From positions 1 to 23,990 of the IMG/VR virus record IMGVR_UViG_2681813314_000025: 23,990 nt of DNA; one strand, given 5' to 3'. Numbering within the stretch: the stretch's first letter is position 1; each line of letters opens with the position of its first letter. Below are positions 1 to 12,441 of this stretch, one piece after another. This DNA comes from a virus (lineage: Duplodnaviria > Heunggongvirae > Uroviricota > Caudoviricetes). The notes beneath the pieces are model-generated. The model searched no databases and had not been told where the DNA came from. It saw nothing but the letters and a program-made list of their open reading frames with translations. A program made the translations under genes and the position numbers.

Positions 1-1053
1 TTACGGGGTAATGCCAACCGCTGCCGCCACTTTGTCGCCACTTGGCAGCGTTGCCAGAGGATTGAAACGGAGCGCCGTTTCCAGATGATCTGGTGCCAGA
101 TGTGCGTAACGCATAGTCATTTTTATATCGTGGTGTCCGAGAATTTTTTGTAAGGCGAGAATGTTTCCACCCGACATCATGAAGTGCGCCGCAAATGTAT
201 GGCGCAGAACGTGTGTGAGTTGACCGCGAGGGAGCACGATAGACGTTTTTTCCATCACGGATAAAAATTGAAAATAGCAGTCTGTAAAGAAATTGAACCC
301 ATCAAGCGCCATGATCTCTTCGTAAAGCTCTTTACTGATAGGGATGCTTCTGTTTTTCTTCCCCTTCGTTCTGACAAAGGTAATTCGGTATTTGGTCACC
401 TGTGAGCGGGTAAGATTTACGGCTTCACGCCAGCGTGCGCCTGTGCTTAAGCATATCTTAACTACCAGTGCCAGAATCGGGTCCTGACGTTTACAATCAG
501 CCAGCAATTCAACAATCTGCTCATGGGTAAGCCATGCCATCTCTTTTTCTGCGATGGTGAATTTTCGCATGTTCTCCAGTGGGTTCGGATACGACCATTC
601 GCCCAGGCGGGATAGTTCGCTAAAAACACTACTAAGATAGCTTTGCTCCAGGTTAATAGTGACCGGGCTTGCTCCTTTTTTCCATTTCTCGCTGAAGTAG
701 ATCTCACCCGTCAGGCGTTTATCTCGATAGTGGGCAAACATTTTAGATGTGAGATCGGTTGCAAGGGGATTGCCCAGAGCGTCAACCATCAACAGCAATT
801 TGTCATAGACATGCTGCCCAGCGGTTAGAGCTTTACCATGTAGTTTGAACCATAGCTCAACTACGTCTTTCAGTGTTCGACGATCCACTGATTCACCCAG
901 CCAGGGCTTTGCTTCGGTTTCTTCCATCGTGTGGCGCTCAAAAGCCAGAGCTTCGCCTTTGGTGGCGAATTGTTTACGCACACGACGCCCACTACGTCCG
1001 GCGGGGTAACATTCGCAAAGCCATTTCCCTGTGGTGAGTTTTCGTACTGCCAT
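1..1053 (-). CDS. int: Tyrosine recombinase / phage integrase (P2/186 family)
   Basis: C-terminal motifs of tyrosine recombinases (..HVLRHTFAAHF.. and ..HHDIKMTMRYAHL.. with the catalytic Tyr). The likely start is the internal Met (MAVRKLTTGKWLCECY..) at 1053; the ORF track extends to 1209, but that upstream stretch is AT-rich and looks non-coding. The stop codon sits at the window edge. Confidence 0.85.
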   Translation of the reverse strand: MAVRKLTTGKWLCECYPAGRSGRRVRKQFATKGEALAFERHTMEETEAKPWLGESVDRRTLKDVVELWFKLHGKALTAGQHVYDKLLLMVDALGNPLATDLTSKMFAHYRDKRLTGEIYFSEKWKKGASPVTINLEQSYLSSVFSELSRLGEWSYPNPLENMRKFTIAEKEMAWLTHEQIVELLADCKRQDPILALVVKICLSTGARWREAVNLTRSQVTKYRITFVRTKGKKNRSIPISKELYEEIMALDGFNFFTDCYFQFLSVMEKTSIVLPRGQLTHVLRHTFAAHFMMSGGNILALQKILGHHDIKMTMRYAHLAPDHLETALRFNPLATLPSGDKVAAAVGITP

Positions 1054-1241
1054 AAAAAATGCCCTCCAGTAGAGAGCATTTTTACTGTATGTATAACCAG
1101 TGTCAATGTATGAAATCCTACGACCATACATCTCACTGAAGCCATAATGAAGTTGGCTATTCTTTTTGCTATGTGAGCATGTAACTTTTGCGGTTAACCT
1201 GCGGCTCATTTTTATTTTAGACGCAGATATAAAAGCAAAAG

Positions 1242-1433
1242 TTATCGTGAGTTTTTAGTACAGATTTTTTTGGATTTACTAATAGTTCCATCATTGCAAA
1301 CGAATTTGCCATCTGAGGTACAGTGAGAAACACCTCCCTTTTTCCCTGAGCAGGGATAATTTCTAGCATAGGTAGTTAGTGGGTTTAATAACAAAGAACA
1401 TGACAAAACCACAAAAAATACCTTACCAAGCAT
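1242..1433 (-). CDS. Small secreted cysteine-rich protein (63 aa: predicted signal peptide plus a ~40-aa mature region with 4 Cys); putative lysogeny-expressed moron
   Basis: N-terminal hydrophobic signal-like segment [23 protein letters not shown] followed by a Lys/Cys-rich region. A strong GGGAGGAAA Shine-Dalgarno lies 5 nt upstream of the ATG, and the gene starts 16 nt downstream of the cI stop, on the same strand between cI and int. The sequence is AT-rich. Confidence 0.5.
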
Positions 1434-1448
1434 AGTTTCCTCCCGGTA

Positions 1449-2105
1449 CTATTTAACATACTTGACTGTTAAACTTATAATTTTACCAATTATTTCAATG
1501 TCTTCTATCTTGCATTCGAAGGCTCTGTTTCCACCCTCGACGAAGATTCTTCCACCGGGTAAACGAGTAATGTCACGGATCGTTATTTCGCCATCAATAC
1601 TTATTACCCATTTACCATCACGTATATCATCAAATTCTTTATCACAAATAAATTCAGAATTGTTATCTGTGATGACAAAAGGTTTTTTAAACGTAGAGGG
1701 TAGAAATTCCTTATCAAAAATATAAAAACCGTCTTTCTGCAATGCTCCATCAGACAATAAATATTTTTCTACTTCTATAGTATTTGTATTTGCTGATGCT
1801 TGCTTTGAACCATGCCCTGTTGTTAGCCAATTAAGCGAGGTGCCCGTTTCAAGGGCGCACTGGATTACCCAATCTGCTGGAAAAATATCACGCATATAGC
1901 GCGTTGCCATGGTGCTCTTAGAAACACCTAAATGATCACAGAGAGCCTGACGGGTACCGAACCCATATGCTTCAACTAAACGTTCTATGGCTTTCTTACC
2001 GCCGCTATTGAAATCCACAAGTCCTCCAAAGAAATCCAAAATTCGTTGACAGATTCCAAAAGCGATCTTAAAGTTGAACCAGAAGTGTTCTTTTGGAGCC
2101 TTCAC
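1449..2105 (-). CDS. cI: Immunity repressor CI (phage 186 CI type; N-terminal HTH, C-terminal oligomerisation domain)
   Basis: The translation aligns by eye with recalled 186 CI (..EAYGF.., ..CALETG..L.WL.TG.G.., ..LPG..........FEC.I.DI...G..). It is oriented away from apl/cII, as in 186. Confidence 0.8.
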   Translation of the reverse strand: MKAPKEHFWFNFKIAFGICQRILDFFGGLVDFNSGGKKAIERLVEAYGFGTRQALCDHLGVSKSTMATRYMRDIFPADWVIQCALETGTSLNWLTTGHGSKQASANTNTIEVEKYLLSDGALQKDGFYIFDKEFLPSTFKKPFVITDNNSEFICDKEFDDIRDGKWVISIDGEITIRDITRLPGGRIFVEGGNRAFECKIEDIEIIGKIISLTVKYVK

Positions 2106-2163
2106 TACTAATCACGACAAACAACGGCTCGCCACAAGCCATATCTAGAAGGAATGTTGCCTT

Positions 2164-2367
2164 ATGACACCTAACATTTCAATTACTCTGAATACACCAC
2201 ATGTCACAATCGAACGTTATAGCGAACTGACTGGCCTTTCTATTGATACGATTAACGACATGTTGGCTGATGGCCGACTACCTCGTCATCGTCTTCGTAA
2301 AGACAAAAAACGTGAAAAGGTAATGATTAACCTGGCTGCTCTGACTGTTGATGCTTTGTCTGCTTAA
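2164..2367 (+). CDS. apl: Apl/Cox-like small HTH regulator (excisionase / lytic-switch repressor)
   Basis: A 67-aa basic protein that is the first gene of the rightward early operon, immediately upstream of cII; this is the position of 186 apl and P2 cox. An HTH-like segment ([19 protein letters not shown]) is present. Confidence 0.65.
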
Positions 2368-2431
2368 TAGACGTCTATTTTCGCAATAAGACGCTGAGTT
2401 CGATTTTGCGATAAGTTCGGAGTTGAAAACC

Positions 2432-2941
2432 ATGTTTGATTACCAAGTTTCCAAACATCCACATTTTGATGAAGCCTGTCGTGCATTTGCATTGCGCCAC
2501 AACTTGGTGCAACTGGCAGAACGTGCAGGTATGAATGTGCAGATTCTGCGGAACAAGCTGAATCCAGCTCAACCTCATTTATTAACCGCACCAGAAATTT
2601 GGTTGCTTACTGATCTGACAGAAGACTCAACACTGGTAGATGGTTTTCTGGCACAGATTCACTGCCTGCCATGTGTGCCGATTAATGAGGTGGCAAAAGA
2701 GAAACTGCCACATTACGTCATGAGTGCAACCGCAGAGATCGGGCGTGTTGCTGCAGGTGCGGTATCTGGCGATGTAAAAACCAGTGCAGGTCGTCGTGAT
2801 GCCATCAGCAGCATTAACTCTGTAACACGACTGATGGCGCTGGCTGCTGTTTCATTGCAGGCCCGTTTACAGGCTAACCCTGCGATGGCGAGTGCGGTTG
2901 ATACCGTAACTGGCCTCGGTGCTTCATTCGGTTTGCTGTGA
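2432..2941 (+). CDS. cII: Phage regulatory protein CII (186 CII family)
   Basis: Translation [40 protein letters not shown].. closely matches recalled 186 CII. Starting at the ATG at 2432 (GGAG 9 nt upstream) gives 169 aa, the same length as 186 CII; the track's TTG start at 2423 is less likely. Confidence 0.85.
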
Positions 2942-2948
2942 GGTGCTT

Positions 2949-3245
2949 ATGCTGTCGAAAGAACCATCATTTGCATCGCTGCTGGTAAAACAAAGCCCGG
3001 CAATGCACTACGGTCACGGCTGGATCACGGGTGAGGATGGAAAACGCTGGCATCCATGTCATTCACAAGATGAATTGCTGTCTGAATTGACCACGAGGAA
3101 ACGGAGAAAGTCCAAATGTATGCGGCAGAAAGTGAAATGGTTTATCAGTTTCGTTACAGAGGGGAGAGTTATTCAGTACCTGAAGATGATTTGCTCTGTT
3201 GCTATCCGTCATTGTCGGGCGATGGCAGTTACTTTTTCACGTTAA
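2949..3245 (+). CDS. Hypothetical early protein (98 aa); boundaries uncertain because its 3' part overlaps the next ORF
   Basis: The ATG at 2949 lies 8 nt after the cII stop, with AGGTG upstream. The last ~40 codons overlap ORF 3116-3340 in another frame and have an odd composition, so the 3' end may not be coding. Confidence 0.35.
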   Translation: MLSKEPSFASLLVKQSPAMHYGHGWITGEDGKRWHPCHSQDELLSELTTRKRRKSKCMRQKVKWFISFVTEGRVIQYLKMICSVAIRHCRAMAVTFSR

Positions 3246-3340
3246 AGGATGGGACGTTTTTACGGGGAGAGCAGGTTAAAGAGACGATACGAAAAAATGT
3301 ATCTCCTCTTGAGCGTTACCGTAAGAACAAAGAACGATAG
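3116..3340 (+). CDS. Hypothetical early protein (74 aa)
   Basis: GGAGAAAG Shine-Dalgarno about 8 nt upstream of the ATG, and a protein-like composition (MYAAESEMVYQFRYRGESYSVPEDD..). Confidence 0.5.
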   Translation: MYAAESEMVYQFRYRGESYSVPEDDLLCCYPSLSGDGSYFFTLKDGTFLRGEQVKETIRKNVSPLERYRKNKER

Positions 3341-3362
3341 CTGCGTTTGGGGGATATGAAGT

Positions 3363-3704
3363 ATGGCAATTAATGGCGCTGCAGCAACTGTTCCATTAAG
3401 CCCCGGTGAACGCCTGAATGGACTTAATCACATTGCGGAGTTAAGGGCGAAAGTTTTTGGCCTGAATATTGAGTCAGAGCTTGAGCGGTTTATTAAAGAT
3501 ATGCGTGATCCACGGGATATCAATAATGAACAAAATAAACGGGCACTGGCTGCCATATTCTTTATGGCAAAAATTCCAGCTGAACGTCATAGCATCAGCA
3601 TTAATGAGCTGACCACTGACGAAAAGCGGGAGCTGATTAAAGCAATGAATCATTTTCGTGCAGTGGTGAGCTTATTTCCCAGACGGCTAACCATGCCGAA
3701 TTAA
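3363..3704 (+). CDS. Hypothetical early protein (113 aa)
   Basis: ORF in the early operon with a GGGGGA-type purine-rich stretch upstream; no motif recognised. Confidence 0.55.
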   Translation: MAINGAAATVPLSPGERLNGLNHIAELRAKVFGLNIESELERFIKDMRDPRDINNEQNKRALAAIFFMAKIPAERHSISINELTTDEKRELIKAMNHFRAVVSLFPRRLTMPN

Positions 3705-3771
3705 CCAACTAATGAAATTAATGGCGTAAACCCGCCGGGCATCCCTTTATCTAAATTCAGGAGAATTGATT

Positions 3772-4005
3772 ATGCGTAATATTGATACCCTCACGACTAA
3801 AACCGGACCGGATGACGCAGGGCTTAATATTTTACTGACAGAGGCTCGTCTGGAAGAACGCCGGGCAAGGGCTGAAGCAATGGCAGCTCGCCTTGATCGC
3901 CTGGCGTGTCATATCACATCCCGCCAGTTAAACCACGTCGAAGCGGCAGAACTGCTGCGTGTGACTGCTGAAGCAATCCAGAACGAAGCGCAGGAGATCC
4001 ACTGA
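3772..4005 (+). CDS. Hypothetical early protein (77 aa), acidic and coiled-coil-like
   Basis: ATG at 3772 with AGGAG 9-10 nt upstream (the track's start at 3766 is a TTG). Its stop overlaps the next start (ATGA-type). Confidence 0.55.
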   Translation: MRNIDTLTTKTGPDDAGLNILLTEARLEERRARAEAMAARLDRLACHITSRQLNHVEAAELLRVTAEAIQNEAQEIH

Positions 4006-4232
4006 TGGCTGATGCAATGGATCTCGTCCAGCAGCGCGTTGAAGAAGAACGCCAACGTCATATCCGTGCTGCCCGTGCCAAAACGCCGGGCGTGTCCCGC
4101 GTGCTTTGCGTTGAGTGTGAAGCGCCAATTCCGCCAGCACGCCGTCGTGCCATTCCGGGTGTGCAGCTTTGCATTACCTGTCAGGAAATCGCAGAGCTGA
4201 AAGGCAAACATTACAACGGAGGTGCTGTATGA
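4005..4232 (+). CDS. TraR/DksA-family C4 zinc-finger protein
   Basis: CxxC-X17-CxxC (CVEC ... CITC) in a 75-aa protein, the spacing typical of the DksA/TraR C4 finger. This differs from the Ogr/Delta CxxC-X22-CxxxxC spacing, so it is not called as the late activator. Confidence 0.7.
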   Translation: MADAMDLVQQRVEEERQRHIRAARAKTPGVSRVLCVECEAPIPPARRRAIPGVQLCITCQEIAELKGKHYNGGAV

Positions 4233-5086
4233 GCACCATCCTGAAATGGGCGGGAAATAAAACCGCCATAATGTCCGAACTGAAAAAGCATCTTCCTGCT
4301 GGCCCGCGACTGGTTGAACCTTTCGCGGGTTCCTGTGCAGTGATGATGGAGACGGATTACCCCAGCTATCTTGTTGCGGATATTAATCCTGATTTAATCA
4401 ACCTCTATAAAAAGGTTGCTGCTGATTGTGAGGCGTTTATATCTCGTGCCAGAGCTTTATTTGAGGAAGCAAACAGGGAGGTGGCTTATTACAACATAAG
4501 GCAGGAGTTTAATTACTCCACTGAAATTACTGATTTCATGAAAGCGGTATATTTTCTGTATCTCAATCGTCATGGTTACCGTGGATTATGTCGCTATAAC
4601 AAGAGCGGGTATTTCAACATTCCCTACGGTAATTATAAAAATCCGTATTTCCCTGAAAAAGAAATTCGCGCATTTGCAGAGAAAGCCCAGCGGGCAACGT
4701 TTATCTGCGCCAGCTTTGATGAAACGCTGGCGATGTTGAAGGCGGGGGATGTGGTGTATTGCGATCCGCCGTATGACGGTACGTTTTCCGGCTATCACAC
4801 TGATGGTTTCACTGAAGATGACCAGTATCACCTGGCATCCGTTCTTGAACATCGGTCATCAGAAGGACATCCGGTCATTGTTTCTAACAGTGACACATCC
4901 CTGATCCGTTCGCTGTATCGCAATTTTACTCACCACTACATCAAGGCAAAACGCAGCATCGGTGTGGCAGCTGGTGATAGTAAATCTGCAACAGAAATCA
5001 TTGCTGTTTCCGGGGCGCGCTGCTGGGTGGGATTTGATCCTTCGCGTGGCGTAGATAGTTCTGCTGTGTACGAGGTGCGTGTATGA
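4229..5086 (+). CDS. dam: DNA N6-adenine methyltransferase, Dam/D12 class (probable GATC specificity)
   Basis: N-terminal ILKWAGNK plus the AdoMet motif EPFAGSCAV, and the catalytic DPPY motif ([12 protein letters not shown]). The start overlaps the upstream stop (ATGA). Confidence 0.85.
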
Positions 5087-7476
5087 GTCATGACGATATG
5101 AGCAACTCTAGCGGCTTTAACGAGGCCGCTGCATCATTTTCATGGAACGGCCCGAAAAAGGCCATTAACCCTTATCTGGACCCGGCGGAATTTGCGCCGG
5201 AGTCTGCACTTTCAAACCTGATCACTCTGTATGCTGCCGATAACGAGCAGGAACAACTGCGCCGCGAGGCACTGAGTGAGCAGGTCTGGGAGCGTTATTT
5301 CTTTAATGAATCCCGTGATCCTGTCCAGCGCGAAATGGAGCAGGATAAGCTCATTAGCCGGGCAAAGCTGGCGCATGAGCAGCAGCGTTTTAATCCAGAC
5401 ATGGTCATTCTGGCTGACGTCAACGCCCAGCCTTCCCATATCAGCAAGCCGCTGATGCAACGTATTGAATACTTCAGCAGTCTGGGCAGGCCAAAGGCTT
5501 ATTCCCGCTATTTGCGTGAGACGATTAAGCCATGTCTGGAAAGACTGGAGCATGTACGCGACAGTCAGCTATCCACTTCTTTTCGCTTTATGGCAAGCCA
5601 TGAAGGGCTGGACGGCCTGCTGATCCTGCCTGAAATGAGTCAGGATCAGGTAAAACGCCTGTCCACCCTGGTAGCAGCGCATATGAGCATGTGTCTTGAG
5701 GTCGCTTGTGGTGATTTGTATGCCACCGATGACGTTAAGCCAGAAGAAATCCGCAAGACATGGGAAAAGGTGGCGGCGGAAACCCTGCGACTGGATGTCA
5801 TACCGCCTGCGTTTGAGCAACTCCGCCGGAAAAGAAACCGCCGTAAACCCGTGCCCTATGAACTTATTCCGGGTTCGCTGGCGCGTATGTTGTGCGCCGA
5901 CTGGTGGTATCGGAAATTATGGAAGATGCGTAGCGAATGGCGGGAAGAGCAGTTGCGTGCTGTTTGCCTGGTCAGCAAAAAAGCATCTCCCTATGTCAGC
6001 TATGAAGCCGTGATGCATAAACGTGAGCAGCGCCGTAAGTCGCTGGAGTTTTTCCGTTCTCATGAACTGGTGAACGAAGACGGCGACACGCTGGATATGG
6101 AAGACGTGGTAAACGCCAGCAGCAGCAACCCTGCGCATCGCCGCAATGAGATGATGGCCTGTGTTAAAGGTCTGGAGCTTATCGCGGAAATGCGCGGTGA
6201 CTGCGCCGTTTTCTACACCATCACCTGTCCGTCACGTTTCCATTCCACGCTAAATAACGGCAGGCCAAACCCGACCTGGACCAACGCGACAGTAAGACAA
6301 AGCAGCGATTATCTGGTCGGCATGTTTGCTGCATTTCGTAAGGCTATGCACAAAGCCGGGTTGCGCTGGTATGGCGTGCGGGTGGCTGAGCCGCATCATG
6401 ACGGCACAGTTCACTGGCACCTGTTGTGTTTCATGCGCAAAAAAGACCGCCGCGCCATTACTGCATTGTTGCGTAAGTTTGCCATCCGTGAAGACCGCGA
6501 GGAGCTGGGCAATAACACGGGGCCACGCTTTAAGTCTGAGCTGATAAACCCGCGCAAAGGAACGCCGACAAGCTACATTGCGAAATATATCAGTAAGAAT
6601 ATTGACGGGCGTGGTCTGGCTGGCGAGATCAGTAAGGAAACGGGTAAATCCCTGCGTGATAACGCTGAATACGTTAATGCCTGGGCGTCTCTGCATCGTG
6701 TTCAGCAATTCCGCTTCTTTGGCATTCCGGGGCGTCAGGCTTACCGTGAACTGCGATTGCTGGCTGGTCAGGCGGCAAGGCAACAGGGGGACAAAAAAGC
6801 AGGTGCGCCGGTACTGGATAACCCGCGCCTTGATGCAATCCTGGCTGCTGCTGATGCTGGTTGTTTTGCCACTTACATCATGAAGCAGGGCGGCGTACTG
6901 GTTCCCCGCAAATATCACCTCATCAGAACTGCTTATGAAATTAACGAAGAGCCGACCGCCTATGGCGATCACGGCATTCGTATTTATGGCATCTGGTCAC
7001 CCATTGCAGAGGGCAAGATCTGCACTCATGCAGTGAAGTGGAAAATGGTTCGTAAAGCCGTTGACGTTCAGGAGGCGGTAGCCGACCAGGGCGCTTGCGC
7101 CCCTTGGACTCGTGGCAATAACTGTCCCCCTGTTGAAAATATGAACAAATCAGGGGGGGATTTACCCGATATTAAAACCATGGATGAGAAGGAGCTGCAG
7201 GAATATCTCCACAACATGGGCCAGAAGGAACGGCGGGAGCTGACAGCCAGGTTGAGACTGGTAAAACCGAAGCGAAAAAAAGCATACATACAGAGTATTT
7301 CGGAGCAGCAGCGCCTGCAGCTTGAGGCAGAACTGACTGCCAGAGGGTTTGAGGGTAGTGTATCTGAGATTGATTTGCTTCTGCGTGGCGGCAGCATTCC
7401 ATCCGGTGCCGGTTTACGTATTTTTTACCGTAAACAGAGGCTGCAGGAAGATGACAAATGGCGTCGATGGTACTAA
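5083..7476 (+). CDS. Replication initiation endonuclease (P2 gpA-type HUH rolling-circle initiator)
   Basis: 797 aa, carrying an HUH-like motif ([13 protein letters not shown]) and a paired-tyrosine motif ([10 protein letters not shown]) as in gpA/phiX174 A-type nickases. It sits between the early operon and the tum/DinI region, as in P2/186. Confidence 0.9.
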
Positions 7477-7568
7477 GGATGCTGTTTAACATTTCGTGCT
7501 TTATTGACTGGAGTCAGTACATCCAATTGACTGACAAAAAAGAGTTTTACATTTTTTCTTTCCTACTA

Positions 7569-7588
7569 TACTGTTTGTATAAACAGTG
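7569..7588 (+). promoter_or_regulatory. LexA (SOS) box TACTGTTTGTATAAACAGTG overlapping a candidate -10 hexamer TATACT (7567-7572)
   Basis: CTGT-N8-ACAG with a strong match to the consensus TACTGTATATATATACAGTA, about 50 nt upstream of the ORF starting at 7635. Confidence 0.6.
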
Positions 7589-7634
7589 GGTATATGTACA
7601 GTATTTGTGTATCCGTGTAATGATAGGAGGGAAG

Positions 7635-7823
7635 ATGCAGGACTATCTTTTGGAGTCATTGAAGCTCCAGCGTATTGATTTTTTTATCAAGCTTGTAGCG
7701 GCTAGTGAGTGCAGCGACGAAGAAAAGCGGCTGGCTATCCAGTGGGTGTCCGAACTGACAGATGAGTTGATGGCGAAAATTCGCAGCCATGAATACAGCC
7801 GATCAATGGACGTTACCAGTTAA
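7635..7823 (+). CDS. Hypothetical small protein; candidate N-terminal module of a Tum-like SOS-induced antirepressor
   Basis: ATG at 7635 preceded by AGGAGGG. It lies directly downstream of the LexA box and immediately upstream of the DinI-like gene. The track's 121-aa version begins upstream of the promoter and is not used. Confidence 0.5.
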   Translation: MQDYLLESLKLQRIDFFIKLVAASECSDEEKRLAIQWVSELTDELMAKIRSHEYSRSMDVTS

Positions 7824-7835
7824 AGGGAAATCTGT

Positions 7836-8057
7836 ATGCGCATTGAAATAATGATCGATAAAGAGCAGAAGATTAGCCAGGCCACACTGGAAGCTCTTGA
7901 ATCCGAGCTCTACCGTAATTTGCGCCCTCTGTATCCCAAAACAGCAATTCGTATCCGTAAGGGCAGCGCCAATGGTGTTGAACTGAGCGGGTTAAAACTG
8001 GATGAAGACAAAAAGCGAGTAATGGAAATAATGCAGCAGGTTACATTAAAACGTTGA
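7836..8057 (+). CDS. DinI-like protein (73 aa)
   Basis: MRIEIMIDKEQKIS..LE.L..EL.... resembles recalled E. coli DinI (MRIEVTIAKT..); the size fits and the gene is in an SOS-regulated context. Confidence 0.75.
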   Translation: MRIEIMIDKEQKISQATLEALESELYRNLRPLYPKTAIRIRKGSANGVELSGLKLDEDKKRVMEIMQQVTLKR

Positions 8058-8218
8058 TCCCGATAGGATCCTATCAGAGGGAACAAGGTTGAACAACGAG
8101 TGAAGCGAGGCGTTAGGTATGGCGGTCATGATCTTCAATGGCCGCCAGCTTTGTACTGTTTGCTCAACCAGCGGGTGCAACATACTTTTCTAACTCGAAT
8201 ATAAGATAAGATTTTTTA

Positions 8219-8247
8219 TTTACAACACTTGGCTTGTTCCTTAGTAT
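8219..8247 (+). promoter_or_regulatory. Candidate sigma70 promoter for the ATPase-HNH operon (TTTACA-17 bp-TAGTAT)
   Basis: Hexamers with 17-bp spacing in an AT-rich region about 45 nt upstream of the ATPase start. Confidence 0.35.
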
Positions 8248-8292
8248 CTAGCTAATCCTGAATGTGGGTTAGTGGAAATTACAAGGAAATAT

Positions 8293-9474
8293 ATGAAACT
8301 GACTGAGCTAACTATAAACGGTATCGGGGGGATAAAGTCCCTGTACGTAAAATTTAGGCCTGACATGAATATTATATGTGGGCCTAACGGAGTTGGAAAA
8401 TCCACACTCTTGCTTGCTGCCTCCTTTCCTTTTCTTCATGGATACACTAATAGAATAAAACGCAATGTCACTTCTGAAACAGGAAGTGTTAGTCTAATAA
8501 TAGAAGATAATTCTGTTAACTTTAATTCAGTATTAGATGTTAACGTTCATTTGCCTACAGAAACAATTCACAACTTTAATAATAACGGATTTGATAAGAG
8601 GAAACTAATAAAATTTGAAATATTACGTAACTTTGATTATAAACATCTTGAGGCGTTGAATGCAGATAAATCACTATCCGATGATGCTGTTTCGCAACAG
8701 ATTAATTTAGGTGTCAATTTACATGATATCAAGGATTGGTTTGCTAAGAGGGATTTGTTTGAAAAAGTAGATAATGGTTACGGTCCTAATACGATAAAAA
8801 ATATACATCTTGCAAGGGAGTGTATATCAATTTTAAACCCTCAGTTTTCTTACAATCGCGTCGATCCTAAATCTTACGATATTTTTGTAAATACCCCGAC
8901 CGGGGTAATATGGTATGAATATCTGTCCTCGGGATTCAAATCATGTATGAGTCTCCTTCTCGGTATTATTAAAGAGATCGAGCTTCGTTATCCGGAGAAA
9001 GATATTTACGCCCAAGAATTTGATGGAGTGATTCTTATCGATGAAATTGAGCTTCATTTGCATCCTGAGTGGCAGGCAAGAATCACTGAAGCCCTTACGA
9101 CAACATTTCCATCAGCACAATTTATTGTCACAACTCACAGCCCACATGTAGTACAGAATGCAAAACCACATCAGATCATTGCGTTAGTACCAGATAATGA
9201 TGGCACAGTGAGAGTAAAAGAACTTCCTGAAAATGGCTTGGGTTATTCTGCCTGGACAGTTGAAGAGGTTTTGTTAGATGTAATGGGGATGGAAAGCACT
9301 CTCAGTAGAAAACTACAAGAACTACTTGATAATTTCGAACGTTTTGTTGATGAAGAAAATTTCGACAAGGCGAAAGAAATTTATGATTATTTGGATATGG
9401 CATTGCATCAAAACAGTATTCTTCGTAAATCTCTTAAAATAAGCCTGATGTCAATTCGAGAGAGAGAAGAGTAA
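8293..9474 (+). CDS. ABC/OLD-type (AAA_21-like) ATPase with no fused nuclease domain; PtuA-like
   Basis: Walker A GPNGVGKST near the N-terminus, an ABC-signature-like LSSGFKS, Walker B/D-loop ILIDEIELHLHP, and an H-loop (TTHSP). There is a long insertion between Walker A and B, as in OLD/Gabija/PtuA-class ATPases. ATG at 8293 with AAGGA upstream (the track's GTG at 8272 is less likely). AT-rich. Confidence 0.8.
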   Translation: MKLTELTINGIGGIKSLYVKFRPDMNIICGPNGVGKSTLLLAASFPFLHGYTNRIKRNVTSETGSVSLIIEDNSVNFNSVLDVNVHLPTETIHNFNNNGFDKRKLIKFEILRNFDYKHLEALNADKSLSDDAVSQQINLGVNLHDIKDWFAKRDLFEKVDNGYGPNTIKNIHLARECISILNPQFSYNRVDPKSYDIFVNTPTGVIWYEYLSSGFKSCMSLLLGIIKEIELRYPEKDIYAQEFDGVILIDEIELHLHPEWQARITEALTTTFPSAQFIVTTHSPHVVQNAKPHQIIALVPDNDGTVRVKELPENGLGYSAWTVEEVLLDVMGMESTLSRKLQELLDNFERFVDEENFDKAKEIYDYLDMALHQNSILRKSLKISLMSIREREE

Positions 9475-9475
9475 A

Positions 9476-10222
9476 ATGATTAAGCTTGAACGGAACTTTA
9501 TTCCTGATTTTTTTACTCGTGTTGATCTTCTATCTTTAACTCAGGAGTTTAAAGATAATGGAACATCTGTTTGGCATCATCCGGAAGTAAAATCGGCATG
9601 TCTAAAATTAAGTAATGGCAAATGTGCATTTTGTGAGGTCAAGCTTGAAGAGGCTAGCACCTATAATGAAATTGAGCATTTTAAGGATAAAAAAAATTTC
9701 CCTGATGATGTTATTAGATGGGAAAATCTCCTTCCTTCATGCCGTCACTGTAATGGTTCAAAACAACGCCATAATGTTGTACTCAATCCTATAATAAATC
9801 CATGCAACGATTTACCGTCAGAACACCTTTATATGATAGGGTATCGTATTAAAGGTAAAACTGATTTAGGTAAAACAACAGTGGATGTTTTAAACTTTAA
9901 TCACAGGGAGCACAAGTTTATACCGCGTTGTAAAGCAGGGGAACTTATAGATAGCAGTATTGATGACGCAATAGAAAAACTTAATTGGTTTAATGAGAAT
10001 CCAAGTACTAGACGTAAAAACATTCTTATGAATCTAGTCGAGGCAATATTAGGTGAGTGTCAGAAAACATCTCCCTTTTCTGCAGTATCAGCAACAATGC
10101 TTCATCGTTCAGTCGAATATTCTTATCTGAAAGAAACCATGCAGATGCAAGGATTATGGTCAGATTATATGCAGGAACTTCATGATGAATCTTTGAGCCT
10201 GACGTTACCGTCAATTCGCTAG
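9476..10222 (+). CDS. HNH endonuclease (PtuB-like)
   Basis: Classic zinc-coordinated HNH finger: CAFCE..(12)..EIEHF ... WENLLPSCRHCNGSK. The start is 1 nt after the ATPase stop, so the two are translationally coupled. Confidence 0.8.
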   Translation: MIKLERNFIPDFFTRVDLLSLTQEFKDNGTSVWHHPEVKSACLKLSNGKCAFCEVKLEEASTYNEIEHFKDKKNFPDDVIRWENLLPSCRHCNGSKQRHNVVLNPIINPCNDLPSEHLYMIGYRIKGKTDLGKTTVDVLNFNHREHKFIPRCKAGELIDSSIDDAIEKLNWFNENPSTRRKNILMNLVEAILGECQKTSPFSAVSATMLHRSVEYSYLKETMQMQGLWSDYMQELHDESLSLTLPSIR

Positions 10223-10248
10223 TTAATACAGTTTTGCCCATAAAAGCT

Positions 10249-10285
10249 AAACGTTCAGATATTCTTGGCTGAACGTTTGATTTTA
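10249..10285 (+). terminator. Rho-independent terminator (10-bp perfect stem AAACGTTCAG/CTGAACGTTT, 10-nt loop, T-rich tail)
   Basis: Perfect inverted repeat 27 nt downstream of the HNH stop, followed by GATTTTAT. Confidence 0.6.
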
Positions 10286-10567
10286 TGAAGACGATAAGCA
10301 GATTGGGCCCGAGTGAGTATCTCGGGAAAATAAACCATTTACATACTATGTTTAACGTTCAAAGCACACCTCAAGCTTTCTTAGTTCTTCTGCTTCGATA
10401 TATAAACGGTCATTTGGTTACGAACATTCACTTCTCCCCTAAGTGCATGGCTATGCTGCATGAGATCGCATGACCGTTTGAGGAGCGTTGTAACGCAGGC
10501 GTGCCAGTTGTGACGGACTTTTTCGTATGTTATGCACCTGCATGAAAACCATTGCACAAAGCGGGCA

Positions 10568-10586
10568 GGCGTGGCGGGGATACGAG
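10568..10586. other. Candidate cos site (cohesive-end region) of the P2/186-type phage
   Basis: GGCGTGGCGGGGA matches the first 13 nt of the 186 cohesive end as I recall it (GGCGTGGCGGGGAAAGCAT; P2 is GGCGAGGCGGGGAAAGCAC). It lies in a non-coding stretch between the right-end cargo and the portal side, where cos is expected. Confidence 0.45.
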
Positions 10587-10696
10587 CGCGCGCTCATGGT
10601 TGAATTAATGAAATTATGGTGTTAAATAGGCTAGCTTTTTAAGTCGTGAATATTCAATTTTTCAACTCATTTTTTTCATAGGGAGGAGTAATTGAC

Positions 10697-11395
10697 ATGG
10701 TTATGTTAGTGGATGACTGTCCACGATGTGGATCACAAAAAATAGCGTTTGATGTTAATGGGCTGAATTGCACTAGGGTTTACAATGCATTGGGCGGGGG
10801 TAAAACATACGAGTACGAGGTCTATTGTGTTTGCCGAGAGTGTCATAAAACGACAATGTTTCTTTGCAGACCTTTAACGAAAAATAAAACTTTAGATGGC
10901 TATAATTGGGAAAGTGGAATATTCGGCTTAAAGGAAGTTGCAGAGGTTGTTAGGCCTATATCACCGGCAGACTTAGCAGTAGAGGAGCCACCAGAGTTCT
11001 TACCTGAGCATATCAATAGTGCATATGAGGAAGGGGCGAAATGTTTGGCTATAGGTTGTTATAATGCAGCAGCAACCATGTTTAGGCTTTGCCTTGATTA
11101 TGCCACAAAAGGACTTCTTCCTGATGGGGAGCAAGGGCCTGCGCAAAAAATAAGGAGAAGCCTAGGGTTAAGAATGGAGTGGTTATTTGATAATCATCTA
11201 CTGCCTGAAGCTTTAAGGGAACTAGCTGAATGCGTTAAAGATGACGGAAATGATGGAGCGCATGAAGGTATTTTGGATAAAGCTGCTGCTGAGGATCTTG
11301 AAGATTTTACCTATCTTTTTTTAGAACGGCTTTACACTGAACCTCAACGCCTTATCGAAGCCAAGACAAGGCGTGAACAAAGAAGAAACAAATAA
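10697..11395 (+). CDS. Zinc-ribbon protein with a DUF4145-like C-terminal helical domain (232 aa); cargo gene of unknown function
   Basis: N-terminal CPRCGS ... CVCRECH cysteine cluster. The C-terminal region has the R...L / GNDGAHE pattern I associate with DUF4145. Strong RBS AGGGAGGAG. It lies between candidate cos and the portal gene, converging on the portal stop with only 8 bp between stops. Confidence 0.65.
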   Translation: MVMLVDDCPRCGSQKIAFDVNGLNCTRVYNALGGGKTYEYEVYCVCRECHKTTMFLCRPLTKNKTLDGYNWESGIFGLKEVAEVVRPISPADLAVEEPPEFLPEHINSAYEEGAKCLAIGCYNAAATMFRLCLDYATKGLLPDGEQGPAQKIRRSLGLRMEWLFDNHLLPEALRELAECVKDDGNDGAHEGILDKAAAEDLEDFTYLFLERLYTEPQRLIEAKTRREQRRNK

Positions 11396-11403
11396 GTTCG
11401 GAA

Positions 11404-12441
11404 TTATTCTTCTGAAAGAATATAGGGCGTAAATTTAATCACTTCTTCGCCCAGCCAGTCGTTCAGCTCTTGTAGCCTTTTTTGCAAGGGCGTTAATTCA
11501 TTACGTACAAATACGCGACTGGCCTTCTCCACATCCCCAAACCCCCCGACATTATTAGGCATTATCCCCATCATTTGTGGCGGCACACGATGCGCCGCCA
11601 TCATGTCGTCCCGGCTCACGTTCTTGATATTCAGGAACTCATCCTTCGCCGCCACTTCTGACAACGGGATAATCTGAAGCCCGTCCTTTTTACCGTTAGG
11701 CGAGTACATAAACAGGTTACGGAAGTTACCAGGACCTTTGGCGCTTTTCATCGCATTGCGGAGGTTGTTCACATCCTCCTGGTTCTGCGCTGCATCGGTC
11801 ATGTACATGATGAAGCCTGCATGACTGCCGTTAATGTAATACTTGCGGCGGAACAGCGTGGCGGACTCGTTGAGCAGAGCTGACGGAATGGCAGAAAGAT
11901 AACCAGGCAGGCCGTAGATCTCCTGGTTGATGTCCGGTTCCATCAGATGAAAAATGTTGCCTTTCGTGAACTGATACGGCTGTGTAGTCATGCCGTATTG
12001 CACAAACCAGTAGGTATCAAGGTCTAACCCGCGTCGGGTGTATTTTGCCAGTGCAGGCTCAAGGGCGATAACTTCACCGAAGCGGTTCGTGCGTTTCTCC
12101 AGGTAGGCGTTACCAAAAACCAGATAGTCCTGTACAAAACGCGAAAAAGCCTGCTGGCTGAGCAGCGGGTGAGGGATGTAGGTGCTGGTCAGAATGTTGC
12201 ACTTCACTGCAATCGGTGAGCTGTGATGCACGGCGGCGCGGAAGGTTCGCGCCAGTCCGTCGAAACTCACAGGCGGCTCGTACCAACGATCCATCTGTAC
12301 GCATTCCACATAGTCCAGCAGTTCGCGGCGGTCCAGAACAGGAACGGGATCACCGAAGCTGAATGCTTCGGCTGAAGTCTGGCTTTTATGCTGGATCTGT
12401 TTCGTCGACGCAGCGCGGTTCTTCTTACTCTTTCCCATCAA
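11404..12441 (-). CDS. Phage portal protein (P2 gpQ family)
   Basis: 345 aa (P2 Q is ~344 aa), immediately downstream of and 4-nt-overlapped by the terminase gene on the same strand, adjacent to cos. Confidence 0.9.
   Translation of the reverse strand: MMGKSKKNRAASTKQIQHKSQTSAEAFSFGDPVPVLDRRELLDYVECVQMDRWYEPPVSFDGLARTFRAAVHHSSPIAVKCNILTSTYIPHPLLSQQAFSRFVQDYLVFGNAYLEKRTNRFGEVIALEPALAKYTRRGLDLDTYWFVQYGMTTQPYQFTKGNIFHLMEPDINQEIYGLPGYLSAIPSALLNESATLFRRKYYINGSHAGFIMYMTDAAQNQEDVNNLRNAMKSAKGPGNFRNLFMYSPNGKKDGLQIIPLSEVAAKDEFLNIKNVSRDDMMAAHRVPPQMMGIMPNNVGGFGDVEKASRVFVRNELTPLQKRLQELNDWLGEEVIKFTPYILSEE

What the first reader, a model, noticed from the sequence alone, without database searches (positions are those of the whole stretch)
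8058..10285. AT-rich cargo operon in the A-to-cos hotspot: ABC/OLD-type ATPase coupled to an HNH nuclease (Septu-like candidate anti-phage system)
Between the conserved DinI-like gene and the probable cos site, where P2 carries old/tin, the prophage has a two-gene cassette that is much AT-richer than the phage backbone. Gene 1 (8293-9474) has Walker A GPNGVGKST, Walker B/D-loop LIDEIELHLHP and an H-loop but no fused TOPRIM nuclease. Gene 2 (9476-10222) starts 1 nt after the ATPase stop and carries a zinc-stabilised HNH finger (CAFCE .. EIEHF .. N .. CRHCNGSK). A candidate promoter precedes the pair and a clean terminator follows it, so it behaves as a self-contained module. The split ATPase-plus-HNH architecture is that of Septu (PtuA/PtuB). 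The ATPase is only ~393 aa, which may be shorter than typical PtuA (I cannot verify that), so it could be a divergent or unclassified variant.
Basis: partly seen in the sequence, partly recalled or inferred. Interest (0 to 1): 0.85.

Follow-up and report, generated by a model that had tools for sequence, protein, structure and literature searches.

The report
Septu defence cassette in P2-like prophage
The two genes are a genuine Septu (PtuA ATPase plus PtuB HNH nuclease) anti-phage system in the known defence hotspot of a P2-like prophage, and this exact gene pair was already listed as Septu in a 2022 survey, so the finding is correct but not new.

Summary
Two co-oriented ORFs (8293-9474, 393 aa; 9476-10222, 248 aa) lie 1 nt apart and are AT-rich (36% GC against 52-57% in the flanking phage genes). 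They sit between the DinI-like gene and the cos region of a P2/186-like prophage.

PADLOC profiles match both proteins end to end: PtuA at E=1e-151 and PtuB at E=1.6e-95. AlphaFold models of both proteins find only solved PtuA and PtuB chains in the PDB. The pair stays adjacent in 72 of 74 related loci across many phyla. No reverse transcriptase or retron RNA is present, and there is no TOPRIM domain. So this is stand-alone Septu (type I), not a retron I-A, OLD, Gabija or PARIS system.

The 393-aa length is the norm for this subfamily, not an oddity.

It is already catalogued. Rousset et al. 2022, Table S5B, system 105 (30 occurrences in P2 hotspots) is labelled "Septu", and its printed sequences are 100% identical to both proteins.

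What remains open is experimental. This short-PtuA subtype has no reported phage-resistance test, trigger or nuclease target.

Interest is low. Novelty: already known.

The parts
8219..8247 (+). Candidate sigma-70 promoter of the cassette: -35 TTTACA (8219-8224), 17-nt spacer, -10 TAGTAT (8242-8247)
   Evidence: Consensus scan, 9 of 12 matches, with a site count no better than chance. The -35 is invariant and the -10 is TAGTAT or TAATAT in four of five orthologous cassettes from Leclercia, Buttiauxella, Pantoea and Silvania, while DNA further upstream diverges. Homology with the Buttiauxella copy starts at 8191.
8283..8287 (+). Shine-Dalgarno AAGGA, 5 nt upstream of the ptuA ATG
   Evidence: Read from the sequence. 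The block ACAAGGA..ATG is conserved in most of the five cassettes.
8293..9474 (+). ptuA: ABC/SMC-type ATPase, 393 aa. Walker A is at nt 8380-8406 (K36), the signature-like LSSGF at 8923-8937, Walker B at 9031-9051 (D250/E251) and the H-loop at 9130-9144. A C-terminal three-helix extension spans aa 339-392.
   Evidence: PADLOC PtuA1 PDLC00305 E=1e-151, residues 1-390 on profile 1-391 of 392. Pfam AAA_21 and AAA_15 above cut-off. PDB phmmer hit to PtuA 8ee4, E=9e-23. AlphaFold pLDDT 85.6. The top 50 Foldseek PDB hits are all PtuA chains, best 8eea_D at E=3e-21. All motifs are invariant in 30 homologues.
9476..10222 (+). ptuB: HNH (H-N-N) nuclease, 248 aa. The HNH core with four Cys is at nt 9623-9754 (C50, C53, H68, N84, C89, C92, N93). 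A C-terminal helical domain spans aa 144-240.
   Evidence: PADLOC PtuB1 PDLC00342 E=1.6e-95, residues 1-245 of a 247-position profile. Pfam HNH scores 18.7 bits, below its 21.4 cut-off. PDB phmmer hits to PtuB chains, E=2e-3. AlphaFold pLDDT 93.0. The only significant Foldseek PDB hits are PtuB chains: 9nnb_J at 2.9e-5 and 8eea_G at 7.5e-3. H68, N84, N93, C50 and C92 are invariant in 31 homologues.
10239..10287 (+). Terminator-like hairpin after ptuB: core stem AAACGTTCAG (10249-10258) and CTGAACGTTT (10269-10278), followed by GATTTTA
   Evidence: RNA fold -18.3 kcal/mol, z = -5.18, with none of 200 shuffles folding as well. Conserved in the Leclercia and Buttiauxella cassettes, with one change that keeps a G-T pair. 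Not reported by the simple terminator scan.
8120..8147 (+). Context: GC-rich hairpin after the DinI-like gene, upstream of the cassette's left boundary
   Evidence: Terminator-like site with 10 pairs, 6 of them G-C. It lies before the point at 8191 where homology with the Buttiauxella cassette begins.
10442..10600 (.). Context: probable cos region, the right-hand limit of the A-to-cos slot
   Evidence: About 84% conserved in 83 P2-like phage records, with no gene annotated there in Salmonella phage RE2010. It contains GGCGTGGCGGGGA at 10570-10582. Near-identity with E. coli OkiPb01711 ends at 10594. Calling it cos rests on position and on my recollection of the 186/P2 cos sequence. The P2 19-mer as I recalled it was not found with up to 3 mismatches.

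Best explanation
This is a stand-alone (type I) Septu anti-phage system carried as cargo in the gpA-to-cos hotspot of a P2/186-like prophage.

Shown here:
- ptuA and ptuB form a tight two-gene unit, 1 nt apart, with a conserved promoter-like site and a terminator hairpin of their own.
- PtuA has an intact ABC-ATPase core and the C-terminal helical extension. In solved complexes that extension clamps PtuB.
- PtuB has an intact Zn-stabilised HNH (H-N-N) site and the helical C-terminal domain.

Inferred from characterised Septu and retron-PtuAB systems:
- PtuA oligomerises and holds PtuB in an ATP-bound, autoinhibited complex.
- The signature motif has Phe (LSSGF) at the position where active ABC ATPases have Gln and E. 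coli Septu has Leu. PtuA is therefore probably an ATP-binding switch rather than a fast hydrolase.
- Infection by a competing phage activates or releases the PtuB nuclease. Suggested signals are a phage protein and/or falling ATP.
- The nuclease then damages nucleic acid. Reported targets are plasmid/genomic DNA nicking for E. coli Septu and cleavage of the tRNA-Tyr variable loop for Septu EcB88 and retron-Eco7.
- The result is an abortive-infection-like arrest that protects the lysogen population, and so the prophage.

The trigger and the substrate of this particular short-PtuA subtype are unknown.

The confidence of 0.9 is for membership of Septu and a defence role. The specific mechanistic steps rate about 0.5.
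For: Family assignment:
- PADLOC full-length hits: PtuA1 at E=1e-151 and PtuB1 at E=1.6e-95. Retron I-A effector profiles score much weaker, at 4.5e-47 and 1e-12.
- Pfam AAA_21 and AAA_15.
- PDB sequence hits to PtuA and PtuB.
- Confident models whose only strong PDB fold matches are PtuA and PtuB chains, including E. coli Septu 8eea.

Operon and module:
- 1-nt spacing.
- ptuB lies directly downstream on the same strand in 72 of 74 loci with a full PtuA relative, from Proteobacteria, Bacteroidota, Firmicutes, Cyanobacteria, Chlorobi, Deinococcales and Paceibacterota. In 68 of the 72 the ptuB reading frame opens before, or within 8 nt of, the ptuA stop.
- Promoter and terminator are conserved with the cassette.
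- Module homology spans 8191-10341 in a Buttiauxella locus where no P2 marker genes were found in the ~6 kb upstream that was fetched; the locus ends just after the cassette.

Catalytic residues are invariant across homologues.

No retron: Rfam gives 0 hits on the window, and no RT gene is annotated in the 99.96%-identical prophage.

Location and literature:
- The cassette lies between gpA/DinI and cos/portal, the P2 hotspot described by Rousset et al. 2022.
- Their Table S5B system 105, labelled 'Septu (Doron et al., 2018)' with 30 occurrences, prints sequences 100% identical to both window proteins.

Mechanistic precedents:
- PMC12819146 and PMC12640716: E. coli Septu forms a 6:2 PtuA:PtuB complex, shows ATP-inhibited DNA nicking, has Leu in place of the signature Gln with no ATPase activity, and binds PtuB through a PtuA C-terminal extension and PtuB C-terminal domain helix bundle.
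Against: - No phage-resistance experiment for this subtype was found. Rousset et al. list it but do not report cloning it, and no paper mentions the RefSeq accessions.
- Identity to solved proteins is low: about 20% for PtuA and 14-18% for PtuB.
- PtuA is about 66 residues shorter than E. coli Septu PtuA in the region between Walker A and the signature motif: 56-202 here against 59-271 in 8ee4. The 6:2 assembly therefore cannot be assumed.
- Pfam HNH is just below its gathering score. NCBIfam PtuA and PtuB equivalogs, built on retron Ec78, score far below their cut-offs: 149 against 500 and 54 against 150.
- The published Septu substrates disagree with each other (DNA nicking, ssDNA, tRNA-Tyr), so the effector step for this cassette is a guess.
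Confidence: 0.9

Rival explanations
1. The pair is the effector module of a type I-A retron (Ec78/Eco7 or Ec83/Eco4 type). In that case it would be controlled by a reverse transcriptase and msDNA rather than acting alone.
For: Retron I-A systems use PtuA and PtuB homologues and occur in the same P2 hotspot (Rousset Table S5B system 64). NCBIfam's best names for both proteins are the retron Ec78 PtuA and PtuB models. PADLOC ATPase_I-A and HNH_I-A profiles also hit.
Against: - No RT gene is annotated in the 99.96%-identical prophage, and the window's ORFs of 90 aa or more correspond to that annotated gene set.
- Rfam finds no retron msr/msd or any other RNA family in the window.
- The NCBIfam scores are far below cut-off: 149 against 500 and 54 against 150.
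- Septu-type PADLOC profiles beat the retron-type profiles by about 100 orders of magnitude.
- PtuA lacks the N-terminal extension and helical flap that retron PtuA uses to bind RT and msDNA. It is 393 aa, against about 550 for retron PtuA.
Confidence: 0.02
2. It belongs to a different ABC-ATPase defence system: OLD, Gabija, PARIS or AbiE-type (AAA_15/AAA_21 ATPase with a TOPRIM or other partner).
For: The Pfam hits AAA_21 ('putative AbiEii toxin') and AAA_15 are shared with OLD, GajA and AriA. AriA structures appear as weak PDB hits at E about 1e-7. P2 itself carries old at this locus.
Against: - No TOPRIM or DUF4435 domain is present in either protein.
- The partner is an HNH protein with the PtuB-specific C-terminal domain.
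- All 25 PADLOC hits shown for the ATPase are PtuA profiles apart from one retron I-A ATPase profile, and all top 50 fold matches are PtuA chains.
Confidence: 0.02
3. The HNH protein is a packaging accessory, like the HNH endonucleases that assist terminase at cos in HK97-like phages, or a homing endonuclease. On that reading the ATPase is unrelated cargo.
For: The gene lies about 350 nt from the probable cos core and close to the terminase and portal genes.
Against: - P2-type packaging is not known to need an HNH protein (general knowledge).
- Only 4 of 5,426 complete E. coli genomes carry the cassette, and the same study counted 18,150 P2-type hotspot loci across E. coli genomes. It is therefore dispensable for the phage.
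- The same gene pair occurs in loci that lack the P2 marker genes tested, in many phyla, always together with PtuA.
- The full-length profile and fold matches are to PtuB.
Confidence: 0.01
4. It is a real Septu homologue but inactive or decaying cargo.
For: No experimental data exist for this subtype. It is rare in E. coli.
Against: - Both ORFs are intact and every catalytic residue is retained.
- The cassette is 100% identical in four unrelated E. coli isolates.
- Orthologues at 70-96% identity keep their length and motifs.
- The promoter and terminator are conserved with the genes.
Confidence: 0.08

Closest known systems
Septu system no. 105 of the P2-like hotspot (Rousset et al. 2022, Cell Host Microbe, Table S5B)
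   Same: Both printed protein sequences are 100% identical to the window's. The genomic slot is the same, between gpA and gpQ next to cos. It is annotated 'Septu (Doron et al., 2018)' with 30 occurrences.
   Different: Nothing differs at the sequence level. One caveat: the table prints one representative sequence per protein family. The same ATPase sequence is printed for systems 46, 64 and 105. The HNH sequence is unique to system 105. The paper does not report testing this system.
E. coli ATCC 25922 Septu, PtuA6:PtuB2 complex (PDB 8EEA, 8EE4, 8SUX; Li et al. 2024)
   Same: The two-gene architecture matches. PtuA shares the ABC-ATPase core, a non-Gln signature motif (Leu there, Phe215 here) and the C-terminal helical extension. 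PtuB shares the HNH domain and helical C-terminal domain. It is the best fold match for PtuA (E=3e-21) and a significant one for PtuB.
   Different: Identity is only about 20% for PtuA and about 14% for PtuB. The window's PtuA is 393 aa against 465 aa, with about 66 fewer residues between Walker A and the signature motif. Oligomeric state, ATP inhibition and DNA nicking are untested for this subtype.
Septu EcB88 (Chihara et al. 2026, PMC13096335)
   Same: It is a stand-alone PtuAB from E. coli. The catalytic His and Asn of PtuB are 16 residues apart (H75/N91 there, H68/N84 here). Defence there requires the Walker A/B and HNH residues.
   Different: The distance from the Walker A Lys to the Walker B Asp is 273 residues in EcB88 (K43, D316) and 214 here (K36, D250), so it is a longer PtuA subtype. 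Its tRNA-Tyr cleavage and its T5-like and T-even phage range are not established for this cassette.
Type I-A retron effectors PtuAB (Ec78/Eco7, Ec83/Eco4)
   Same: The ATPase and HNH folds and the PtuA C-terminal extension to PtuB C-terminal domain interface are homologous.
   Different: There is no RT or ncRNA here. There is no N-terminal extension or helical flap. Retron PtuA has a Gln signature motif and hydrolyses ATP, and it forms 4:2 rather than 6:2 assemblies.
P2 Old, Gabija GajA and PARIS AriA
   Same: All have an ABC-type ATPase of the AAA_15/AAA_21 class used for phage exclusion. Old occupies the same P2 slot.
   Different: Those systems pair or fuse the ATPase with a TOPRIM nuclease. 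Here the nuclease is a separate HNH protein.

Membership tests
Septu (type I, stand-alone PtuAB) | Two adjacent co-oriented genes, ptuA followed by ptuB | tested here: met
   The gap is 1 nt. The same order and strand are found in 72 of 74 related loci.
Septu (type I, stand-alone PtuAB) | PtuA matches Septu PtuA profiles over its full length and has intact Walker A, Walker B and H-loop motifs | tested here: met
   PADLOC PDLC00305 E=1e-151, residues 1-390 of a 392-position profile. Pfam AAA_21 at 68.9 bits and AAA_15 at 67.3 bits, both above cut-off. K36, D250, E251 and H282 are invariant.
Septu (type I, stand-alone PtuAB) | PtuB matches Septu PtuB profiles and has the HNH catalytic residues | tested here: met
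   PADLOC PDLC00342 E=1.6e-95, residues 1-245 of a 247-position profile. H68, N84 and N93 are invariant. The generic Pfam HNH model scores only 18.7 bits against a 21.4 cut-off.
Septu (type I, stand-alone PtuAB) | PtuA and PtuB folds, including the PtuA C-terminal helical extension and the PtuB helical C-terminal domain that form the interface | tested here: met
   Models have pLDDT 85.6 and 93.0, with helices at 339-392 (PtuA) and 144-240 (PtuB). Foldseek finds only PtuA and PtuB chains, aligned over most of their length. The interface itself was not modelled.
Septu (type I, stand-alone PtuAB) | No associated reverse transcriptase or ncRNA | tested here: met
   Rfam gives 0 hits. No RT is annotated in the near-identical prophage.
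Septu (type I, stand-alone PtuAB) | PtuA oligomer binding PtuB (6:2 in E. coli Septu), with nuclease activity inhibited by ATP | not testable with these tools
   No multimer prediction or biochemistry is available. The shorter middle region of PtuA leaves the stoichiometry open.
Septu (type I, stand-alone PtuAB) | Confers phage resistance that depends on both the ATPase and the HNH residues | not testable with these tools
   This needs an experiment. No published test of this subtype was found.
Type I-A retron (Septu type II) | RT gene and msr/msd ncRNA next to ptuAB, and a PtuA of about 550 aa with an N-terminal extension and helical flap | tested here: not met
   No RT or ncRNA. PtuA is 393 aa. 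The NCBIfam retron PtuA and PtuB equivalogs score 149 against 500 and 54 against 150.
OLD / Gabija / PARIS | TOPRIM (or DUF4435) nuclease domain fused to or paired with the ABC ATPase | tested here: not met
   No such domain appears in the Pfam or PADLOC results for either protein.
P2-like prophage defence hotspot cargo (Rousset et al. 2022) | Variable, compositionally foreign genes between gpA and gpQ, next to cos | tested here: met
   The gene order is gpA, a small ORF, the DinI-like gene, ptuA, ptuB, cos, the DUF4145 gene, then portal Q. GC is 36% against 52-57%. The identical system is listed in Table S5B.

The most novel reading that the evidence does not exclude
The 393-aa 'minimal' PtuA subfamily lacks about 66 residues of the middle region present in the only solved stand-alone Septu, and it has an invariant Phe in the signature motif. 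It might therefore assemble with PtuB in a different stoichiometry. It might also respond to a different phage trigger or cut a different substrate than the characterised E. coli Septu systems. That would make it a mechanistically distinct Septu subtype and a compact model for resolving the disagreement over whether Septu targets DNA or tRNA.
Probability: 0.2. Interest if true: 0.4.

Novelty: already known. Interest (0 to 1): 0.15.

Why it matters
It matters little as a discovery. The cassette is a textbook example of a prophage hotspot carrying a known defence system. It would be called automatically by PADLOC-type tools, and it is already listed in the published catalogue of P2 hotspots.

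Its remaining value is practical.
- It is a compact Septu (393 + 248 aa) that appears self-contained, with its own promoter-like site and terminator hairpin, and this subtype has not been tested experimentally.
- It sits next to a second, independently swappable defence slot between cos and Q, occupied by a DUF4145 gene here and an AIPR gene in a sister strain. That arrangement is a clean natural example of modular exchange at cos.

Tried and rejected
- Retron I-A: rejected. There are no Rfam hits and no RT gene, and the retron-specific NCBIfam models score far below cut-off.
- OLD, Gabija or PARIS: rejected, because there is no TOPRIM or DUF4435 domain.
- RecF/RecN/SMC housekeeping paralogue: rejected. 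Only the N-terminal P-loop region (about 40 residues) matches, far below cut-offs.
- cos-associated packaging HNH: rejected, on the cassette's rarity among complete E. coli genomes and its conserved pairing with PtuA in loci without P2 markers.
- Megablast of the cassette against 50,697 phage records: no match. A protein search found only distant relatives of 35% identity or less, for example Burkholderia phage KS9.
- Search for the P2 cos 19-mer as I remembered it: no match with up to 3 mismatches. The cos assignment instead rests on a conserved block and the homology breakpoint.
- The primary Septu structure paper (Li et al. 2024, PMC12318543) is not held, so its findings are cited through PMC12819146 and PMC12640716.
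- A literature search for the RefSeq accessions WP_053887526 and WP_053887525 found nothing.
- The promoter consensus scan alone is uninformative, since its site count equals chance.
Full report
**1. Observation**

The window carries a P2/186-like prophage. The gene order is integrase, CI, CII, Fil, Dam methylase, gpA replication endonuclease (5083-7476), a small ORF, a DinI-like gene (7836-8057), two cargo genes, then portal Q and terminase P on the minus strand, followed by the capsid, lysis and tail genes. This order comes from the ORF lists and from the RefSeq annotation of an E. coli prophage that is 99.96% identical over window 1-10594.

- Gene 1 is 8293-9474 (393 aa) and gene 2 is 9476-10222 (248 aa), on the same strand with 1 nt between stop and start.
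- Their GC content is 0.36, against 0.52-0.57 for gpA, portal and terminase. GC3 is 0.27-0.30, against 0.57-0.67.
- The ATG at 8293, not the upstream GTG at 8272, is supported by three things: the RefSeq call, the start of the profile alignment, and the AAGGA upstream of it that most of five orthologous cassettes share.

**2. Regulatory signals**

The promoter-like site TTTACA-17-TAGTAT lies at 8219-8247. On its own it is not significant, since the region has 13 consensus sites against 12.4 expected. In five orthologous cassettes, though, the -35 is invariant and the -10 is TAGTAT or TAATAT in four of them, while the DNA further upstream is unrelated. These cassettes come from this window, Leclercia, Buttiauxella, Pantoea and Silvania, and their genes are 72-86% identical at the DNA level.

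The hairpin after ptuB (10239-10287) folds at -18.3 kcal/mol with z = -5.2. It is conserved in the Leclercia and Buttiauxella copies. The simple scanner missed it, so it is plausible rather than textbook.

Homology with the Buttiauxella locus spans 8191-10341, and that locus shows no P2 markers in the ~6 kb upstream that was fetched (it ends just after the cassette).

**3. Identity**

*Profile searches.*
- PADLOC matches both proteins end to end. PtuA1 (PDLC00305) scores E=1e-151 over residues 1-390 of a 392-position profile. PtuB1 (PDLC00342) scores E=1.6e-95 over 1-245 of 247.
- Pfam gives AAA_21 and AAA_15 above cut-off, and HNH just below it.
- The NCBIfam PtuA and PtuB models are built on retron Ec78. 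They hit, but far below their cut-offs.

*Solved structures.*
- By sequence, the nearest solved proteins are PtuA of E. coli Septu (8ee4, E=9e-23), the retron PtuA proteins, and the retron PtuB proteins.
- AlphaFold models built on 30-31 homologues are confident, with pLDDT 85.6 and 93.0.
- The PtuA model's top 50 Foldseek PDB hits are all PtuA chains, best 8eea_D at E=3e-21.
- The PtuB model's only significant hits are four PtuB chains, including Septu 8eea_G.

*Length.* The 393-aa length is normal for this subfamily, whose homologues are 386-396 aa. Compared with the 465-aa E. coli Septu PtuA, the difference is about 66 residues between Walker A and the signature motif.

**4. Conservation of the pair**

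A scan of one genome per species returned 74 loci with a full-length PtuA relative.
- In 72 of them a PtuB relative lies directly downstream on the same strand. The two exceptions are a contig end and a fragmented gene.
- In 68 of the 72 the ptuB frame opens before, or within 8 nt of, the ptuA stop.
- The hosts span Gamma-, Beta- and Alphaproteobacteria, Bacteroidota, Firmicutes, Cyanobacteria, Chlorobi, Deinococcales and a Paceibacterota genome.
- Only the Leclercia locus shows the same P2 context, including the same DUF4145 neighbour. A Pseudomonas locus has a P2-type portal nearby.

The catalytic residues are invariant across the sampled homologues: K36, D250, E251 and H282 in PtuA, and H68, N84 and N93 in PtuB. 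The signature-motif position F215 is also invariant. Of the four zinc-binding Cys in PtuB, C50 and C92 are invariant, while C53 and C89 vary in distant members.

**5. Exclusions**

- Rfam finds nothing in the window and no RT gene is present. It is therefore not a type I-A retron.
- No TOPRIM or DUF4435 domain is present, so it is not OLD, Gabija or PARIS.
- The RecF, RecN and SMC hits cover only the P-loop region.
- A packaging role for the HNH protein does not fit its rarity (4 of 5,426 complete E. coli genomes) or its conserved pairing with PtuA in loci without P2 markers.

**6. Prior knowledge**

Rousset et al. 2022 (PMC9122126) defined the gpA-to-gpQ region next to cos as a defence hotspot of P2-like phages. 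Their Table S5B lists system 105, 'AAA_21/AAA_15/SMC_N | HNH_5', with 30 occurrences and the label 'Septu (Doron et al., 2018)'. Its two printed protein sequences equal the window's PtuA and PtuB by exact string comparison.

One caveat applies. The table prints one representative per protein family, and the same ATPase sequence also appears under systems 46 and 64. The HNH sequence appears only under system 105.

The main text does not report cloning this system. No paper mentions its RefSeq accessions. In RefSeq the genes are annotated only as 'AAA family ATPase' and 'HNH endonuclease'.

**7. Mechanism**

*Shown here:* a tightly spaced ATPase-nuclease pair with intact active sites and the interface elements, namely the PtuA C-terminal helices and the PtuB helical C-terminal domain.

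*Inferred from published work.*
[quoted passage not shown] It has Leu at the position of the signature Gln. It nicks DNA when ATP inhibition is relieved and is sensitised by a phage protein.
- Septu EcB88 requires its Walker A/B and HNH residues, slows growth of infected cells, and cleaves tRNA-Tyr in the variable loop only upon infection.
- The window's PtuA has Phe at the Gln/Leu position, aligned and invariant. I therefore expect an ATP-binding switch rather than a motor.

The trigger, the stoichiometry and the substrate for this short subtype remain unknown.

**8. Verdict**

Interest is low. The only open ground is experimental characterisation of this compact subtype.

Noticed in passing
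window 10697-11395 (+): A second cargo gene encodes a 232-aa zinc-ribbon/DUF4145 protein (Pfam E=4.5e-7; weak PADLOC PD-T7-4 hit at E=1.2e-6). It is 100% identical to Rousset Table S5B system 29, 'zinc_ribbon_13/DUF4145', which has 125 occurrences and is labelled 'putative nuclease'. It lies between cos and portal Q and ends 8 nt from the Q stop. Copies at 95-98% identity covering at least 80% of the query occur in 40 of 5,426 complete E. coli genomes.
   Followed up: partly
window 10594-11468 compared with L001 16537-18484: E. coli OkiPb01711 is 99.96% identical to window 1-10594. Homology stops there, within the probable cos block, and resumes at 11468 inside portal Q at 97.3%. In between, that strain has an AIPR-family gene instead of DUF4145. 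The hotspot therefore has two independently exchangeable slots, gpA-to-cos and cos-to-Q, with one exchange boundary at cos.
   Followed up: partly
window 10442-10600: A non-coding block is about 84% conserved in 83 P2-like phage records from Klebsiella, Yersinia, Salmonella and Escherichia, and it contains GGCGTGGCGGGGA at 10570-10582. It is probably the cos site. The P2 cos 19-mer as I recalled it was not found with up to 3 mismatches.
   Followed up: partly
window 7836-8057 (+) and 8120-8147: The DinI-like gene (Pfam E=1.3e-17) is followed by a GC-rich terminator-like hairpin. The prophage has CI, CII and Fil regulators like phage 186. The DinI-like protein may therefore be a Tum-type SOS antirepressor. 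That idea comes from memory and was not tested.
   Followed up: no
Rousset et al. 2022, Table S5B, systems 46, 64 and 105: The same 393-aa ATPase sequence is printed for a PtuA plus TIGR02646-type HNH pair (system 46, 83 occurrences), for a type I-A retron (system 64, 66 occurrences) and for Septu (system 105). The table evidently shows one representative per protein family, so sequence identity read from that table needs care.
   Followed up: yes
protein P0022: A 435-aa metagenomic protein is 91% identical to PtuA over 77% of its length and also carries a phage-portal Pfam domain (PF04860). It is probably a gene-call fusion or a truncated cassette abutting portal Q in another P2-like element.
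   Followed up: no
window 10285-10473 (+): A 62-aa ORF lies between the ptuB terminator and the cos block. It has no Pfam hit and is not annotated in the near-identical RefSeq prophage. It is probably not a gene.
   Followed up: partly
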